A stretch of DNA of 64,000 nucleotides, from contig UQHQ01000005.1 of assembly GCA_900540945.1 (NCBI GenBank), positions 29,749 through 93,748 on the forward strand. Reading direction: 5' to 3'. Below, piece after piece: positions 26,347 to 41,456 of the stretch. This stretch comes from an uncultured Collinsella sp. (lineage in GTDB: Bacteria; Actinomycetota; Coriobacteriia; Coriobacteriales; Coriobacteriaceae). Numbering within the stretch: the stretch's first letter is position 1; each line of letters begins with the position of its first letter. The notes under the pieces were generated by a model. That model saw only the letters and a program-made list of their open reading frames with translations, made no database searches and was not told the DNA's origin. The position numbers and the translations under genes are program-made.

Positions 26347-26386
26347 AGGAGGCATCCGAAAGGATGCCTCCTTTTTTGAGGGTTCG
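26347..26386 (+). terminator. Rho-independent terminator of the carboxypeptidase gene
   Basis: ggaggcatcc-gaaa-ggatgcctcc followed by tttttt. Confidence 0.7.
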
Positions 26387-26405
26387 AATCCCCAGCGCCC
26401 TTTCT
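26381..26405. repeat. Short tRNA T-arm mimic (inverted copy of the tRNA-Ser T-arm) downstream of the tRNA-Ser terminator
   Basis: gagggttcgaatccccagcgccc versus tRNA-Ser T-arm/acceptor ctggggttcgaatccccagctctcc on the opposite strand. Confidence 0.45.
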
Positions 26406-26409
26406 CGAT

Positions 26410-26453
26410 AATAAAAAAAAGGCCCCAAATGGGACCCTTCTTTCAATTCATAC
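26410..26453 (-). terminator. Terminator hairpin + T-run downstream of tRNA-Ser
   Basis: On minus: CCA-gtatgaattgaaagaa-gggtcccatttggggcc-ttttttttatt. Same architecture as the terminators after the other tRNAs. Confidence 0.6.
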
Positions 26454-26544
26454 TGGCGGAGAGCTGGGGATTCGAACCCCAGATGCCCTTTTGGGGCATA
26501 CTCGCTTAGCAGGCGAGCACCTTCGGCCTCTCGGTCAGCTCTCC
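26454..26544 (-). tRNA. tRNA-Ser (anticodon GCT), type II with long variable arm, CCA encoded
   Basis: GGAGAGC acceptor, anticodon loop CTGCTAA, variable arm TATGCCCCAAAAGGGCATC, T-arm TGGGGTTCGAATCCCCA, GCTCTCC-G-CCA. Confidence 0.9.
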
Positions 26545-29160: not shown

Positions 29161-29215
29161 CGATAAGAAATAGTCCGCTTTACACTCACGCCTCGACTGA
29201 GGTTCGGATCCATGG
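29161..29215. repeat. Partial (3' about 55 nt) copy of the tRNA-linked GC-rich element
   Basis: gtccgctttacactcacgcctcgactgaggttcggatccatgggatgccggcg, similar to the ends of the full copies at 29276-29404 and 29701-29830. Confidence 0.55.
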
Positions 29216-29256
29216 GATGCCGGCGTAAAAGAAAAGCCCCCGTTGCCGGAGGCTTG

Positions 29257-29404
29257 AAGTTCAATTGGTGCGGCGTATAGGATTCCGCGCATCCGCTTCG
29301 CGGATCCGCGCCGGCTTCGCCCGCCTGCCGGCGTGCTCGCCCGCTCGCTACGGACGCTCCGCGTCCGCTTTACGCTCGCGCCTCGACCGAGGTTCGAATC
29401 CATG
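29257..29404. repeat. Chimeric pseudo-tRNA unit A: 19-nt tRNA-Arg 3' fragment (29257-29275) fused to an about 125-nt GC-rich structured element containing an inverted T-loop mimic
   Basis: tggtgcggcgtataggatt | ccgcgcatccgcttcgcggatccgcgcc...cggacgctccgcgtccg...cgaccgaggttcgaatccatggg. Flanked on both sides by the shared terminator hairpin. Confidence 0.7.
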
Positions 29405-29405
29405 G

Positions 29406-29446
29406 GATGCCGGCGTAAAAGAAAAGCCTCCGTTGCCGGAGGCTTC
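29406..29446 (-). terminator. Terminator hairpin + T-run after tRNA-Arg copy 1
   Basis: On minus: CCA-attgaacttga-agcctccggcaacggaggct-tttcttttac. Confidence 0.6.
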
Positions 29447-29523
29447 AAGTTCAATTGGTGCGGCGTATAGGATTCGAACCTATGACGTTCTGATTCGTAG
29501 TCAGACCCTCTATCCAGCTGAGG
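29447..29523 (-). tRNA. tRNA-Arg (anticodon ACG), copy 1, CCA encoded
   Basis: GCGGCGT-TA-CCTC-AGCTGGATA-GAGG-G-TCTGA-CTACGAA-TCAGA-ACGTC-ATAGG-TTCGAAT-CCTAT-ACGCCGC-A-CCA. Confidence 0.92.
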
Positions 29524-29535
29524 TAACGCCGCGAC

Positions 29536-29564
29536 TTGTTGATTATTATGCACATGGACTGAAT
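29536..29564 (-). promoter_or_regulatory. Sigma-70-like promoter for tRNA-Arg copy 1 (TTGACC-N17-CATAAT on the minus strand)
   Basis: Revcomp reads cTTGACCattattcagtccatgtgCATAATaat, then about 7 nt to the tRNA 5' end. Confidence 0.6.
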
Positions 29565-29681
29565 AATGGTCAAGCGTTTTTTCAAAAAAAGTTATCGAAT
29601 TTGATTTTTACTCATTTGGAGCACTTGGCGCGATCCTCGACGTATCGCGATATAAGAAAAGCCCCCGTTGCCGGGAGCTTC

Positions 29682-29830
29682 AAGATCAATTGGTGCGGCG
29701 TATAGGATTCCGCGCATCCGCTGCGCGAATCCGCGCCGGCTTCGCCCGCCTGCCGGCGTGCTCGCCCGCTCGCTGAAAACGCTCCGCGTTTTCTTGACGC
29801 TCGCGCCTCGACCGAGGTTCGAATCTCCGC
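29682..29830. repeat. Chimeric pseudo-tRNA unit B: 19-nt tRNA-Arg 3' fragment (29682-29700) fused to an about 130-nt GC-rich structured element. On the plus strand it ends in T-arm-like gaggttcgaatctcc + gcaatgct-c-cca.
   Basis: About 90% identical to unit A. The central hairpin gaaaacgc-tcc-gcgttttc (unit A: cggacgc-tcc-gcgtccg) shows compensatory changes. Confidence 0.7.
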
Positions 29831-29871
29831 AATGCTCCCATATAAGAAAAGCCCCCGTTGCCGGGAGCTTT
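29830..29871 (-). terminator. Terminator hairpin + T-run after tRNA-Arg copy 2
   Basis: aagctcccggcaacgggggctt + ttcttatat on minus. Confidence 0.6.
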
Positions 29872-29948
29872 AAAGTCAATTGGTGCGGCGTATAGGATTC
29901 GAACCTATGACGTTCTGATTCGTAGTCAGACCCTCTATCCAGCTGAGG
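29872..29948 (-). tRNA. tRNA-Arg (ACG), copy 2, identical to copy 1
   Basis: Identical 77-nt sequence including CCA. Confidence 0.92.
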
Positions 29949-29960
29949 TAACGCCGCAAC

Positions 29961-29989
29961 GCACGGATTATTATGCACGCGAGCCCCCG
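29961..29989 (-). promoter_or_regulatory. Promoter for tRNA-Arg copy 2 (TTGACC-N17-CATAAT)
   Basis: Revcomp reads gcTTGACCcatcgggggctcgcgtgCATAATaatccgtgcgt-GCGGCG. Confidence 0.6.
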
Positions 29990-30036
29990 ATGGGTCAAGC
30001 GACAATTTGAAAAAATTTTACGGAGTGGTGATTAGG

Positions 30037-30065
30037 CTGTTCACACCCCGACCGAGGTTCGAATC
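30037..30065. repeat. Short partial copy of the element end with T-loop mimic
   Basis: ccccgaccgaggttcgaatccatgcatgg. Confidence 0.5.
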
Positions 30066-30069
30066 CATG

Positions 30070-30111
30070 CATGGTTTCCAAAAAAGAAAAGCCCCCGTTG
30101 CCGGAGGCTTC
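30070..30111 (-). terminator. Terminator hairpin + T-run after tRNA-Arg copy 3
   Basis: aagcctccggcaacgggggctt + ttcttttttgg on minus. Confidence 0.6.
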
Positions 30112-30188
30112 AAGTTCGATTGGTGCGGCGTATAGGATTCGAACCTATGACGTTCTGATTCGTAGTCAGACCCTCTATCCAGCTGAGG
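30112..30188 (-). tRNA. tRNA-Arg (ACG), copy 3, identical
   Basis: Identical 77-nt sequence. Upstream TTGACT...TTTATA promoter-like sequence at 30196-30235. Confidence 0.92.
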
Positions 30189-30271
30189 TAACGCCGCAGC
30201 GCAAGTCATATAAAACCACTTTAGTTAGTTGGAGTCAAGCACAATCTCAAACTTTTTTGAGAATATGTTCC

Positions 30272-34883: not shown

Positions 34884-35098
34884 CGTGGACAAAAAAGTCC
34901 AAATATGAGTACTGCTACCAGTTTAGTAACAGCGTTTTAAAGACCAAAACGCACTGTTGGACCAAGATTCCTTTCAAATTGACTCAGTTCAGCTCAAGGC
35001 AGTGTTAAGTTAGCAAACATTTGTTGCGTAAATAGTGCAATGATCACCTTTGAAAATGTGATTCATTTAGTGACAGTACTCATATTTGACATTTTTTG
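34884..35098. mobile_element. MITE-like element: about 215-bp AT-rich segment bounded by 24-bp terminal inverted repeats
   Basis: TIRs caaaaaagtccaaatatgagtactg / cagtactcatatttgacattttttg (1 mismatch). The interior is AT-rich with nested inverted repeats and no ORF. Confidence 0.55.
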
Positions 35099-35148
35099 CC
35101 CCACAGGAAGCTTCGCTATACGAGGACCCTATGTCACATCTGTCAATT

Positions 35149-35240
35149 CGCCTGCCAGCGGACTCGCCAGCTCGCTAAAAACGCTCCGCGTTTTCTTTGC
35201 GCTCGCTCCTTCACAGGTTCAAGTCCCCGTGATGGGCCCA
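35149..35240. repeat. tRNA-linked GC-rich structured element (Leu-locus copy), ending on plus in the T-arm mimic caggttcaagtcc + gtgatgggccca
   Basis: cgcctgccagcggactcgccagctcgctaaaaacgctccgcgttttctttgcgctcgc... aligns with the Arg-locus copies over about 85 nt. The T-loop TTCAAGT matches the tRNA-Leu T-loop rather than the Arg one. Confidence 0.65.
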
Positions 35241-35280
35241 TAACAAAAAAGCTCCCATTGCTGGGAGCTCTTTCAATCAA
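35241..35280 (-). terminator. Terminator hairpin + T-run after tRNA-Leu
   Basis: On minus: CCA-ttgattgaaa-gagctcccagcaatgggagctc-ttttttgttat. Confidence 0.65.
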
Positions 35281-35367
35281 TGGTGCGGGCGAAAGGACTT
35301 GAACCTTCATGGGGTTGCCCCCATACGGACCTGAACCGTACGCGTCTGCCAATTCCGCCACGCCCGC
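35281..35367 (-). tRNA. tRNA-Leu (anticodon CAG), type II, CCA encoded
   Basis: GCGGGCG acceptor, anticodon loop TTCAGGT, variable arm ATGGGGGCAACCCCATG, T-arm GAAGGTTCAAGTCCTTT, CGCCCGC-A-CCA. Confidence 0.9.
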
Positions 35368-40904: not shown

Positions 40905-41197
40905 ACTGCCCCCTTCGGATCGTGCAGGCCAAACCTGCATCGTATTGCATAGGAAAAGTATCGTTTTGAGTATACCCGCGCGTGCGGACAGACGACCGAA
41001 CGGTCTGTAAAGTGGCGCAAAAGCGGGAGGAATGTCTGGGGCGAGCGGGGTCAAGATGACGTACCGAGATGCGCATACACGCCGAGGGCAGGCGCCGGAA
41101 AGCGCATTCCATTCTTTCGCTCAATAATGGGATGCGCTTTCCGCGGGTCCACATAAAAGAAAAGGACCCCTTTGCAGAGGTCCTAGTCAATTCAAGG

Positions 41198-41335
41198 TGG
41201 CGGGGAAGGGAATCGCGTCCGCGCGCTGCGCGGACGGACCGCTGCGGCGCCTGCGCGCCTTGCGAGCTACGCTGGAAAACGCTTGCGCGTTTCCTCAGCT
41301 CCGCGCCCTCACGGGGTTCGATTCCGTGCATGGTC
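41198..41335. repeat. Chimeric pseudo-tRNA unit (Phe locus): 18-nt tRNA-Phe 3' fragment (41198-41215) fused to an about 120-nt GC-rich structured element ending in the T-arm mimic cacggggttcgattccgtg
   Basis: Same architecture as the Arg units. The central hairpin ggaaaacgc-ttgc-gcgtttcc is homologous to the Arg/Leu hairpin with a different loop. The T-loop TTCGATT matches tRNA-Phe. Confidence 0.65.
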
Positions 41336-41383
41336 CACATAAAAGAAAAGGACCCCTTTGCAGAGGTCCTAGTCAATTCAAGG
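41336..41383 (-). terminator. Terminator hairpin + T-run after tRNA-Phe (a second copy after the pseudo-unit lies at 41150-41197)
   Basis: ggacctctgcaaaggggtcc + ttttcttttatgtgg on minus. Confidence 0.6.

Positions 41384-41456
<73 letters not shown>

What the first reader, a model, noticed from the sequence alone, without database searches (positions are those of the whole stretch)
26381..26453. All four tRNA loci share the same downstream architecture: CCA - ATTGA/TCAAT box - GC hairpin - TTTTCTTTT - inverted T-arm copy
Downstream of Ser, Arg (x3), Leu and Phe the sequence after CCA starts aTTGAa/TCAAT, then a locus-specific perfect hairpin (gggtccc..gggacc, agcctccg..cggaggct, gagctccca..tgggagctc, ggacctct..agaggtcc), then a T-run, then the inverted T-arm copy. 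The hairpins differ in sequence but keep their position and spacing, which suggests a selected processing or termination module rather than simple duplication.
Basis: seen in the sequence. Interest (0 to 1): 0.55.

Follow-up and report, generated by a model that had tools for sequence, protein, structure and literature searches.

The report
Small repeat units behind tRNA genes
The hairpin, T-run and inverted T-arm after each tRNA gene are real, and they are the front end of a gene-less repeat unit of about 185 bases that sits behind at least eight different tRNA genes across the gut genus Collinsella, carrying its own terminator and a spare copy of the tRNA's 3' end; how it moves is not known.

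Summary
Observation confirmed. All six tRNA genes in the window (Ser, Arg x3, Leu, Phe, all on the minus strand) are followed by an AT-rich TTGA spacer, a GC hairpin with a T-run, about 12 variable bases, and an inverted copy of that tRNA's own T-loop.

Past the inverted T-loop lies a GC-rich, ORF-less core of about 100 nt made of conserved hairpins. After it comes a second direct copy of the tRNA 3' end (from T-loop position ~57-59) with its own terminator.

A model of the core hit 151 sites in 112 genome loci, nearly all titled Collinsella. Of these, 147 lie 40-61 nt (or one unit further) downstream of a same-strand tRNA of eight isoacceptor types. Copy number varies between genomes, and an empty tRNA-Phe site exists. 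tRNA-Pro genes in C. aerofaciens have the terminator but no inverted T-loop, so this is not a general tRNA signal.

Units with the same layout but unrelated cores occur at a bacterial tRNA-Arg(CCT) and in archaeal-looking metagenome contigs.

Best reading: a miniature, non-autonomous insertion unit specific for the tRNA T-loop that renews the tRNA 3' end and terminator. Its enzyme was not found. No Rfam family and no paper found describes it.

The parts
26454..26544 (-). tRNA-Ser(GCT) gene
   Evidence: ARAGORN
26413..26453 (-). Ser locus: TTGA spacer, then A-tract/GC hairpin/T-run (terminator)
   Evidence: Sequence. Folds at -19.7 kcal/mol, z -4.3. Not called by the simple scan.
26380..26396 (-). 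Ser locus: inverted copy of tRNA-Ser positions 51-67 (GCTGGGGATTCGAACCC), a 'solo' copy with no core behind it
   Evidence: L094 has a full unit inserted at the same place.
30121..30197 (-). tRNA-Arg(ACG) gene, copy 1
30082..30111 (-). Arg1 terminator
30039..30066 (-). Arg1 inverted T-loop (30055-30066) plus the first ~16 nt of a truncated core, then the promoter of the next tRNA-Arg
29881..29957 (-). tRNA-Arg(ACG) gene, copy 2
29842..29871 (-). Arg2 terminator
29710..29827 (-). Arg2 unit: inverted T-loop (29815-29827) and full GC-rich core (29710-29814)
   Evidence: nhmmer E = 3.6e-35.
29652..29709 (-). Arg2 unit: direct copy of tRNA-Arg 3' end from the T-loop (29691-29709), spacer and second terminator (29652-29681)
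29456..29532 (-). tRNA-Arg(ACG) gene, copy 3
29417..29446 (-). Arg3 terminator
29285..29401 (-). Arg3 unit: inverted T-loop (29390-29401) and full core (29285-29389). Its H1 hairpin carries compensatory changes (CGGACGC/GCGTCCG instead of AAAACGC/GCGTTTT).
29173..29284 (-). Arg3 unit continued: direct tRNA 3' copy (29266-29284), terminator (29227-29256), degenerate inverted T-loop (29200-29211), partial core (29173-29199)
35281..35367 (-). tRNA-Leu(CAG) gene
35244..35271 (-). Leu terminator
   Evidence: Folds at -19.6 kcal/mol, z -4.8. Not called by the simple scan.
35149..35226 (-). Leu unit: inverted T-loop GGACTTGAACCT (35215-35226) and a core truncated after ~66 nt
41382..41456 (-). tRNA-Phe(GAA) gene
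41341..41370 (-). Phe terminator
41216..41325 (-). Phe unit: inverted T-loop GGAATCGAACCCC (41313-41325) and full core (41216-41312)
41146..41215 (-). Phe unit: second copy of the tRNA 3' end, spacer, terminator and 9 more nt. It is a perfect 70-nt direct repeat of 41332-41401, with a 186-nt period.
   Evidence: family D5. Empty site in L106.

Best explanation
The flagged pattern is the tRNA-proximal part of a gene-less repeat unit of about 185-190 nt.

In tRNA sense, a unit consists of:
- a copy of the tRNA 3' end from T-loop position ~57-59 to CCA;
- an AT-rich TTGA spacer;
- an A-tract/GC-hairpin/T-tract intrinsic terminator;
- about 12 unconstrained bases;
- an inverted copy of the same tRNA's positions 51 to 62-68;
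- a GC-rich core of about 100 nt made of conserved hairpins.

Most likely way of working (inferred, not shown): the unit inserts at the T-loop of a tRNA gene. The gene keeps its 5' part and receives the unit's 3' end and terminator. The old 3' end and terminator are pushed downstream of the core. Repeated insertion, together with recombination between the repeats, builds and shrinks tandem arrays.

Within the unit, the hairpin plus T-run ends tRNA transcription. The inverted T-arm piece is one strand of the stem that closes the core, pairing with the T-stem 3' strand of the next tRNA 3' copy. It is the only complete copy of the target site that the unit carries, so it is probably the unit's recognition or recombination site.

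The recombinase must act in trans and was not identified. The layout (hybrid site, terminator 'loop', full inverted site, cargo, hybrid site) is what a folded single-strand recombination site would leave, as in integron attC or CTX-phage attP. This is a lead only.
For: Position and spread:
- The core occurs in the window only next to tRNA genes.
- 151 core hits fall in 112 of 120 genome loci; 147 of them lie 40-61 nt or ~230 nt downstream of a same-strand tRNA. The tRNAs are Val, Leu, Arg, Gln, Glu, Phe, Ala and Ser.
- The inverted T-loop is present with at most 1 mismatch in nearly all core-bearing loci and tracks the local tRNA. Its inner boundary is fixed at position 50/51.

Presence or absence:
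- tRNA-Phe is empty in L106, with the same flank as follows the second repeat in the window.
- tRNA-Ser has only a solo inverted T-loop in the window and a full unit in L094.
- tRNA-Val has one unit in L007 and two in L001.

The terminator belongs to the unit:
- Units in one array carry different terminators (L001: three kinds). By my reading of the sequences, related terminators recur behind different tRNA types.
- Displaced tRNA 3' copies decay, as in Gln.
- No ORF and no larger island lies inside any array.

Structure and conservation:
- Hairpins are conserved with compensatory changes: P2 CG/UA 14:9, also H1. The arms of terminal mini-units covary: GCCGTGAT/ATCACGGC and GCCGCGGT/ACCGCGGC.
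- The 5' core is as conserved as the tRNA itself (pi 0.003-0.05 against 0.4-0.5 in the flank).

Same layout elsewhere:
- Unrelated cores in the same layout occur at a bacterial tRNA-Arg(CCT) and in archaeal-looking contigs at Arg, Leu, Gly and Val tRNAs.
Against: - No recombinase, transposase or reverse transcriptase was found in or consistently beside the units.
- No excised form, circle junction or demonstrably new insertion was seen. Every presence/absence difference could also arise by deletion between the direct repeats.
- The phase of the unit (where it starts and ends) cannot be fixed from periodic arrays.
- A double-stranded circle of 186 bp would be hard to form.
- The element would need a matching 3' end and a matching inverted T-loop for each tRNA type, and I cannot show how it retargets.
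- The bases between the T-run and the inverted T-loop are not significantly complementary to the acceptor 3' strand (mean z -0.35). Any folded site therefore has only a 5-9 bp stem.
- The very high conservation of the 5' core across species could instead mean a host function.
Confidence: 0.5

Rival explanations
1. The units are inert scars. Classical integrase-carrying islands or prophages integrated at these tRNA genes, bringing a tRNA 3' end and a terminator, and later lost their interior by deletion. What remains is their two ends fused together (like the cis-mobilisable elements of streptococci). The small units were never mobile themselves.
For: - These tRNA genes are used by integrating elements. 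Prophage ends abut the 3' tips of tRNA-Glu, tRNA-Arg(CCT) and tRNA-Gln directly upstream of units.
- A half tRNA-Glu lies next to foreign-looking DNA in L059.
- Direct repeats of a tRNA 3' end around an insert are the signature of integrase-type integration.
Against: - All ~150 copies have the same complete core with the same ends. No intermediate-sized or full-length relative was found among 120 loci, although the search pattern lies in the part nearest the tRNA.
- The same core is found at eight tRNA types, whereas an integrase normally uses one.
- The prophages seen recombine at the extreme 3' tip, not at the T-loop, and lie upstream of the units.
- No match to the core in 50,697 phage records.
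- The model does not explain the locus-matched inverted T-loop.
Confidence: 0.2
2. A host-selected RNA or cis-signal. The hairpin and T-run terminate the tRNA transcript. The inverted T-arm and core are a structured trailer or separate small RNA that works in tRNA 3' processing, in termination, or as a tRNA-linked regulatory RNA.
For: - Terminator anatomy.
- Conserved hairpins with GNRA or GNA loops and compensatory changes.
- In the consensus folds, the tRNA-sense strand is more stable than the antisense strand in 4 of 4 subfamilies.
- The 5' core is as conserved across species as the tRNA.
Against: - Absent from the two tRNA-Pro genes examined and from empty Phe and Arg sites, so it is not needed for tRNA expression.
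- The core lies behind a strong terminator and has no promoter-like site of its own.
- The helices are almost purely Watson-Crick: 2011 WC, 21 G.U in sense, 11 A.C. The strand, and hence RNA rather than DNA, is undecided.
- Single-sequence fold z-scores are modest on both strands.
- No Rfam family matches.
- Copy number varies between close relatives.
Confidence: 0.15
3. Purely local events: tandem duplication by unequal crossing-over and template switching at the palindromic T-arm and terminator hairpins, spread by gene conversion, with no dedicated mobility mechanism.
For: - Tandem arrays with a 186-190 nt period and a perfect 70-nt repeat at Phe.
- Array contraction patterns can be explained by recombination between repeats.
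- T-arm and terminator are hairpin-forming sequences.
Against: - The same ~100-nt core is found behind eight unlinked tRNA genes. It is as similar between Val and Gln loci as among Val orthologues. Local duplication cannot place it there.
- The same layout recurs with other cores in unrelated organisms.
Confidence: 0.05

Closest known systems
Integrase-type genomic islands and prophages that integrate into tRNA genes (T-loop sublocation), and their gene-less derivatives (cis-mobilisable elements, CIMEs)
   Same: The insert is flanked by direct repeats of the tRNA 3' end starting in the T-loop. The incoming DNA restores the tRNA 3' end and brings a terminator. Tandem accretion occurs at the tRNA.
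   Different: Only ~186 nt and no integrase. One core family serves eight tRNA types. It carries an inverted copy of the target T-loop. The junction on the core side has no recognisable second half-site.
Integron gene cassettes (attC x attI) and CTX-phage/IMEX folded attP
   Same: Cargo is bounded by an imperfect palindromic, structure-conserved site. In the array the inverted half pairs with the start of the next unit. New units would enter at one fixed site (here the tRNA T-loop), giving arrays. The layout of hybrid site, loop, full inverted site, cargo and hybrid site matches what single-strand hairpin recombination leaves.
   Different: No IntI or Xer involvement was shown. There is no GTTRRRY or dif consensus. 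The stem is only 5-9 bp. The cargo is a non-coding hairpin cluster.
MITEs and REP/BIME-type palindromic repeats
   Same: Small, ORF-less, multi-copy, hairpin-rich and intergenic. They depend on an enzyme encoded elsewhere.
   Different: Strictly placed 40-61 nt after tRNA genes in one orientation. The 'terminal inverted repeats' are copies of the local tRNA's T-arm and differ from locus to locus. There is no short target-site duplication.
IS200/IS605-derived PATEs and IS110-family bridge-RNA elements
   Same: Hairpins near the ends and no terminal inverted repeats of their own. Insertion next to a short fixed motif (here after TTCGA or TTCAA of the T-loop). Those families are found in both bacteria and archaea. 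An IS110 bridge RNA holds one guide antisense and one guide sense to its target, as this unit does.
   Different: No TnpA, TnpB or DEDD transposase gene is linked. No Rfam hit. The segments matching the target are much longer than known guides. This comparison rests on my recall of those systems, not on a test.
Rho-independent (intrinsic) terminators of tRNA operons
   Same: GC hairpin followed by a T-run directly after the tRNA, with an upstream A-tract (bidirectional type).
   Different: This accounts only for the hairpin and T-run, not for the inverted T-loop, the core or the second tRNA 3' copy.

Membership tests
Intrinsic terminator | GC-rich stem-loop immediately followed by a T-run, downstream of the gene on the same strand | tested here: met
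   The scan sites at Arg and 2 at Phe. Ser and Leu are not called by the scan but fold as A-tract/GC stem/U-tract hairpins of about -19.7 kcal/mol, z below -4.
Intrinsic terminator | Transcripts end in the T-run | not testable with these tools
   Needs Term-seq or 3' RACE.
tRNA-integrating integrative element (integrase type) | Insert flanked by direct repeats consisting of the tRNA 3' part | tested here: met
   Perfect 70-nt repeat at Phe. Second 3' copies at Arg, Phe, Val, Glu, Leu, Gln, Ser and Ala.
tRNA-integrating integrative element (integrase type) | Encodes its own integrase | tested here: not met
   100-116 nt lie between the repeats, with no ORF. No larger insert in 120 loci.
tRNA-integrating integrative element (integrase type) | Occupied and empty sites exist in related genomes | tested here: met
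   L106 Phe is empty and the window is filled. Ser: window against L094. Val: one against two units.
MITE | Terminal inverted repeats shared by all copies, plus a short target-site duplication | tested here: not met
   The inverted arms are the local T-arm and differ by locus. The repeats are 50-70 nt, and their terminators can differ within one array.
MITE | Small (<300 nt), ORF-less, many copies | tested here: met
Integron cassette / attC | Structure-conserved imperfect palindrome whose inverse core site pairs with the core site at the cassette boundary | tested here: inconclusive
   The inverted T-arm pairs with the next 3' copy (5-9 bp), and the arms covary in mini-units. The stem is short, and the attC consensus boxes (as I recall them) are not visible in the unit sequences.
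Integron cassette / attC | Adjacent intI gene and attI | not tested
   No recombinase gene was seen next to the arrays by eye in the ORF lists. No systematic domain search was made.
Any Rfam RNA family | Covariance-model match to the core | tested here: not met
   Only tRNA reaches the gathering score. Nothing credible on the core at E up to 5.
IS200/IS605 PATE or IS110 bridge-RNA element | Linked or co-occurring TnpA/TnpB or DEDD transposase with the same ends | not tested
   No such ORF lies inside the units. Genome-wide co-occurrence could not be examined.

The most novel reading that the evidence does not exclude
The units are the non-autonomous form of an unrecognised recombination system that targets the tRNA T-loop, present in both bacteria and archaea. 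In it, the locus-matched inverted T-loop, displayed at the base of a folded single-strand DNA or RNA hairpin, acts as an exchangeable target-recognition segment. The unit's own copy of the tRNA 3' end acts as the donor homology. This would be an integron-like or bridge-RNA-like logic in which the 'cassette' repairs the gene it enters.
Probability: 0.15. Interest if true: 0.85.

Novelty: new variant of a known kind. Interest (0 to 1): 0.6.

Why it matters
tRNA genes are the classic landing sites of islands and prophages. Here a unit of under 200 bases, without any gene, appears to do the same job: it enters at the T-loop, renews the tRNA 3' end and supplies the terminator. It is found at eight tRNA species in one of the commonest human gut genera.

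If it is mobile, it is about the smallest tRNA-targeting insertion element I am aware of, and it points to a trans-acting enzyme that recognises T-arm DNA or hairpins. Look-alike units with other cores in a second bacterial lineage and in archaeal-looking contigs suggest a general mechanism, not a curiosity of one genus.

There are practical consequences too. These units supply the terminators of many tRNA genes. They create pseudo-att sites and long repeats that will confuse prophage-border and island callers. They also give strain-level copy-number markers.

Tried and rejected
- **Opposite-strand tRNA.** I first read the inverted T-loop with its flank as the 3' end of a tRNA-like gene on the plus strand (T-loop + 5 + 7 + N + CCA). 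No 5' acceptor partner exists, Rfam and ARAGORN find nothing there, and the flank is not significantly complementary to the acceptor strand.
- **Long target-site duplication by an element inserting after the terminator.** Rejected because terminators within one array can be unrelated.
- **Phage-borne units.** Rejected. The core hits in IMG/VR contigs lie in host flank beyond the prophage end, and there is no match in the phage collection.
- **Autonomous copy.** None was found among the 120 loci. The unpaired TIR in L040 is an unrelated IS256-type insertion. The IS1595 transposase next to the Val array in NZ_OY725717 has different ends.
- **Strand of folding.** The consensus folds favour the tRNA-sense strand, but counts in helices shared by both strands are 21 G.U against 11 A.C among 2011 Watson-Crick pairs, and single-sequence z-scores are mixed. 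Left undecided.
- **Which neighbour the inverted T-arm covaries with.** A generic scan was too noisy to use. Only the targeted mini-unit scan was informative.
- **Metagenome scan.** Mostly trivial matches inside tRNA-Ser(CGA) genes and eukaryote-like palindromes. Only 9 of the listed loci were relevant.
- **Literature.** Five searches and one paper check found no description of such units.
- **Reverse-transcription origin.** The direct copy starting after A58 recalls RT arrest at m1A58. I considered and dropped this: the repeat extends past the terminator T-run, the start varies from 56 to 59, and no RT is linked.

Full report
**What is at the coordinates.** The window holds six tRNA genes, all on the minus strand: Ser(GCT), three Arg(ACG), Leu(CAG) and Phe(GAA). 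The finding's interval, 26381-26453, is the 3' flank of tRNA-Ser.

Read in tRNA sense, each gene is followed by five things:
- the encoded CCA (CC only for Phe);
- an AT-rich spacer containing TTGA;
- a GC hairpin flanked by an A-tract and a T-run;
- about 12 poorly conserved bases;
- an inverted copy of that tRNA's own T-loop.

The consensus scan calls the hairpins terminator-like at every Arg and Phe copy. It does not call Ser or Leu, because there the A-tract pairs with the T-run. Both still fold into 13-15 bp hairpins of about -19.7 kcal/mol with z below -4.

The motif GGRWTYGAACC occurs nine times in 64 kb against 0.25 expected. Five are the T-loops themselves and four are inverted copies 54-62 nt downstream. 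Leu and Arg2 carry the matching variants ACTTGAACC and GAGATTCGAACC.

TTGA is enriched in the spacers: 27 of 54 distinct spacers against 4.4 expected. Its 3' part is simply the A-tract arm of the terminator.

At Arg2, Arg3, Leu and Phe, a GC-rich stretch of about 100 nt lies beyond the inverted T-loop and is shared between these unlinked loci. At Arg2, Arg3 and Phe it is followed by a second, direct copy of the tRNA 3' end starting inside the T-loop, again with spacer and terminator.

At Phe the repeat is a perfect 70 nt with a 186-nt period. A profile of the four cores finds six hits in the window, all next to tRNA genes. No promoter-like site lies inside the units on either strand, and there is no ORF.

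**Distribution.** Of these, 112 carry the core, and nearly all are titled Collinsella. They include C. aerofaciens ATCC 25986 and C. tanakaei.

Of 151 core hits, 147 lie 40-61 nt, or about 230 nt (a second tandem unit), downstream of a tRNA on the same strand. By tRNA: Val(TAC) 40, Leu(CAG) 34, Arg(ACG) 28, Gln(TTG) 20, Glu(TTC) 17, Phe 5, Ala(CGC) 2, Ser(GCT) 1. The other four hits are at locus edges or behind a half tRNA left by another integrated element.

Nearly every core-bearing tRNA has the inverted T-loop 11-mer with at most one mismatch. The inverted copy always ends at tRNA position 50/51 on the core side. On the other side it runs to position 62-68.

The direct copy begins at position 56-59, depending on the tRNA.

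**Not a general tRNA signal.** A 900-kb C. aerofaciens record gave an unbiased sample of 150 kb. tRNA-Val there carries a full unit. tRNA-Pro(CGG) and tRNA-Pro(GGG) have CCA, spacer, hairpin and T-run but no inverted T-loop and no core.

The terminator part is therefore ordinary. The inverted T-arm marks only those tRNA genes that carry the unit.

**Signs of insertion and turnover.**
- L106 has an empty tRNA-Phe site whose flank (..TTTTATGTGGACC|CGCGGAAA..) equals the sequence after the second repeat in the window.
- tRNA-Ser in the window and in L043 has only the inverted T-loop. L094 has a complete unit there.
- tRNA-Val has one unit in L007 and L008, with different core variants, and both variants in L001.
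- Within L001 the three terminators differ. By my reading of the sequences, the same terminator families recur behind different tRNA types: GCTCCCAGCAATGGGAGC at Val and Leu, a close relative at Arg, and a GGACC/GGTCC type at Val, Phe and Ser.

The terminator therefore travels with the unit and is not a duplicated piece of resident flank. This argues against a long target-site duplication. It argues for insertion at the T-loop by a unit that brings a fresh 3' end and terminator.

Displaced 3' copies decay, as in Gln. No array contains a larger insert with genes.

**Structure and conservation.** An alignment of 23 diverse units gives conserved hairpins with compensatory changes:
- P2, a CCN-GNRA-NGG hairpin that uses the last three bases of the inverted T-loop (C-G in 14 sequences, U-A in 9);
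- H1, with A-U to G-C and C-G to U-A changes, including window copy Arg3.

The later hairpins (H2, H3) are replaced by different sequences that keep hairpin potential. Loops are often GNRA or GNA, and GCGAAGC recurs.

Terminal 'mini-units' at tRNA-Glu arrays read GCCGGGAT-TCGAACCC-GNNA-GGGTGCGG-ATCCCGGC. Their arms covary: GCCGTGAT/ATCACGGC and GCCGCGGT/ACCGCGGC. So pairing between the inverted T-arm piece and the following direct piece is what is being maintained, even where it no longer matches the tRNA.

Across orthologous loci the 5' core is as invariant as the tRNA (pi 0.003-0.05). The flank beyond the unit has pi 0.4-0.5. The 5' core is as similar between Val and Gln loci as among Val loci.

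The strand that folds is undecided:
- Consensus folds are more stable in tRNA sense.
- Helices common to both strands are almost purely Watson-Crick, with 21 G.U against 11 A.C.
- Single-sequence z-scores are mixed.
- The 12-nt variable segment is not significantly complementary to the acceptor strand.

**Not a known RNA, not phage-borne.** Rfam matches only the tRNAs. The core has no match in 50,697 phage records, and its only plasmid-collection match is the C. aerofaciens record above.

The IMG/VR contigs with the core are prophage ends joined to the 3' tip of tRNA-Glu or tRNA-Gln, with the units lying in the host flank beyond. Those prophages recombine at the tip of the tRNA, not at the T-loop.

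**The same layout elsewhere.** Prophage-flank loci L132, L134 and L141, and metagenome locus L256, show a bacterial tRNA-Arg(CCT) followed by:
- spacer, terminator and variable bases;
- GGCGGATTCGAACCG;
- an unrelated core of about 38 nt;
- TTCGAATCCGCCCGGGGGCACCA;
- spacer and terminator.

The single metagenome scan was designed to catch an inverted T-loop followed within 25-55 nt by a direct one. Most of its hits were trivial, lying inside tRNA-Ser(CGA) genes.

Seven contigs were not trivial. They carry GC-rich tRNAs without an encoded CCA, next to genes for acidic proteins. I infer they are haloarchaeal, but I did not test this. They have the same arrangement behind tRNA-Arg(CCT), Leu(TAG), Gly(TCC) and Val(TAC), with a shared short hairpin core and, in L255, tandem units. 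By eye, no integrase-like ORF lies beside them (no domain search was made).

The architecture therefore recurs with unrelated cores. This points to a common mechanism acting at the T-arm, not to one Collinsella RNA.

**Most likely explanation and its limits.** I commit to a miniature, non-autonomous insertion unit specific for the tRNA T-loop.
- Shown: the anatomy, the strict position and orientation, the multi-tRNA and multi-genome distribution, the presence/absence and copy-number differences, the unit-borne terminators, and the conserved paired structure.
- Inferred: that the unit inserts at T-loop position 56-59, that the inverted T-loop is its recognition or closing-stem site, and that a trans-acting recombinase moves it.

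The order of parts is hybrid site (the tRNA), terminator, complete inverted site, cargo, hybrid site. This is what recombination of a folded single-strand site would leave, as at integron attC or CTX-phage attP. I offer it as the leading mechanistic lead only.

Every polymorphism seen could also come from deletion between repeats. I found no enzyme, no circle junction and no route for retargeting.

The rivals, each scored separately in this report, are:
- scars of classical islands;
- a host RNA or cis-signal;
- purely local duplication.

**Novelty.** Five literature searches and one paper check found no description. The nearest known things are tRNA-integrating islands and their gene-less derivatives, integron cassettes, folded attP elements and MITEs. 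The unit shares features with each but fails a defining feature of each. I rate it a new variant of a known kind, with a modest chance of something more unusual.

Noticed in passing
window 34885-35102 (minus strand); also 50 of the 120 genome loci, e.g. L007 5225-5433: A MITE-like element of about 220 nt with ~30-40 bp terminal inverted repeats (..CCGTGGnCAAAAAATnGCAAATATGAGTACTGTnAC..). In the window it cuts the tRNA-Leu unit's core. In the loci inspected (L001, L002, L007, L008 and others) it sits at the distal end of the tRNA-unit array (Val, Glu, Gln, Leu). The interior differs between loci while the ends are conserved.
   Followed up: partly
L040 7200-8000: The MITE-like element is itself interrupted by an ORF that looks like an IS256-family transposase (..NGYRPRSLKTAVGDVELEIPKLRHGTYYPE..). 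The ORF runs off the locus end.
   Followed up: partly
L263 (NZ_OY725717.1 612348-613403): An annotated IS1595-family transposase starts right after the second terminator of the tRNA-Val array (end GGCTCTGTTAGACC..). tRNA 3' flanks in Collinsella collect several kinds of insertion.
   Followed up: partly
NZ_OY725717.1 (L263-L265): The record is labelled 'plasmid 6' of C. aerofaciens TSDC17.2-1.1. It is 900 kb and carries recA, ftsK, groEL, lysS and rny, so it looks like a chromosome segment filed as a plasmid.
   Followed up: no
L125-L131, L132-L142 (IMG/VR contigs): One prophage family ends in ..CTCGGTTCGAGGAGATGCGCAAACGGTGCACCA, joined to the 3' tip of tRNA-Glu in some contigs and of tRNA-Arg(CCT)-type ends in others. 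Another is joined to ..CCCAGCCA of tRNA-Gln. The called viral contigs include host flank with the units.
   Followed up: partly
L138, L139, L128, L059 (after tRNA-Glu 3' copies); L137: Native-looking terminators are built from T-arm pieces, e.g. ACGAACCCGC..GCGGGTTCGT. One hairpin has the loop AATTCGAA. T-arm-derived palindromes downstream of tRNAs are thus not limited to the units.
   Followed up: no
L009, L040, L123, L127 (tRNA-Gln loci): A long perfect palindrome, GCCGGCACTTGGGGACG..CGTCCCCAAGTGCCGGC, sits where the displaced tRNA-Gln 3' copy would be. It is another small hairpin element.
   Followed up: no
window 41382-41456: The tRNA-Phe gene ends ..GCCACC followed by T, so the CCA is not fully encoded. 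The acceptor stem has a T4:C69 mismatch. The other five tRNAs encode CCA.
   Followed up: no
window 29456-30240: Three tandem tRNA-Arg(ACG) genes. The scan finds a TTGACC-17-CATAAT promoter with an A/T-rich upstream stretch before two of them (copies 2 and 3); the sequence before copy 1 looks similar by eye. The junction between unit core and the next promoter falls at different core positions in different genomes (window, L018, L025, L028).
   Followed up: partly
L006 near its tRNA-Leu unit: A run GGGGGGGGGGGGCGGGGGGGGGGG replaces the 3' half of the core at the contig end. It looks like an assembly artefact.
   Followed up: no
L143, L144, L149, L155, L163 and others (samples Ga0126337, Ga0268261; 37-45% GC): Large perfect palindromes are centred on inverted plus direct T-arm sequences inside a longer repeated element. 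They are probably eukaryotic tRNA-derived repeats and are unrelated to the bacterial units.
   Followed up: no
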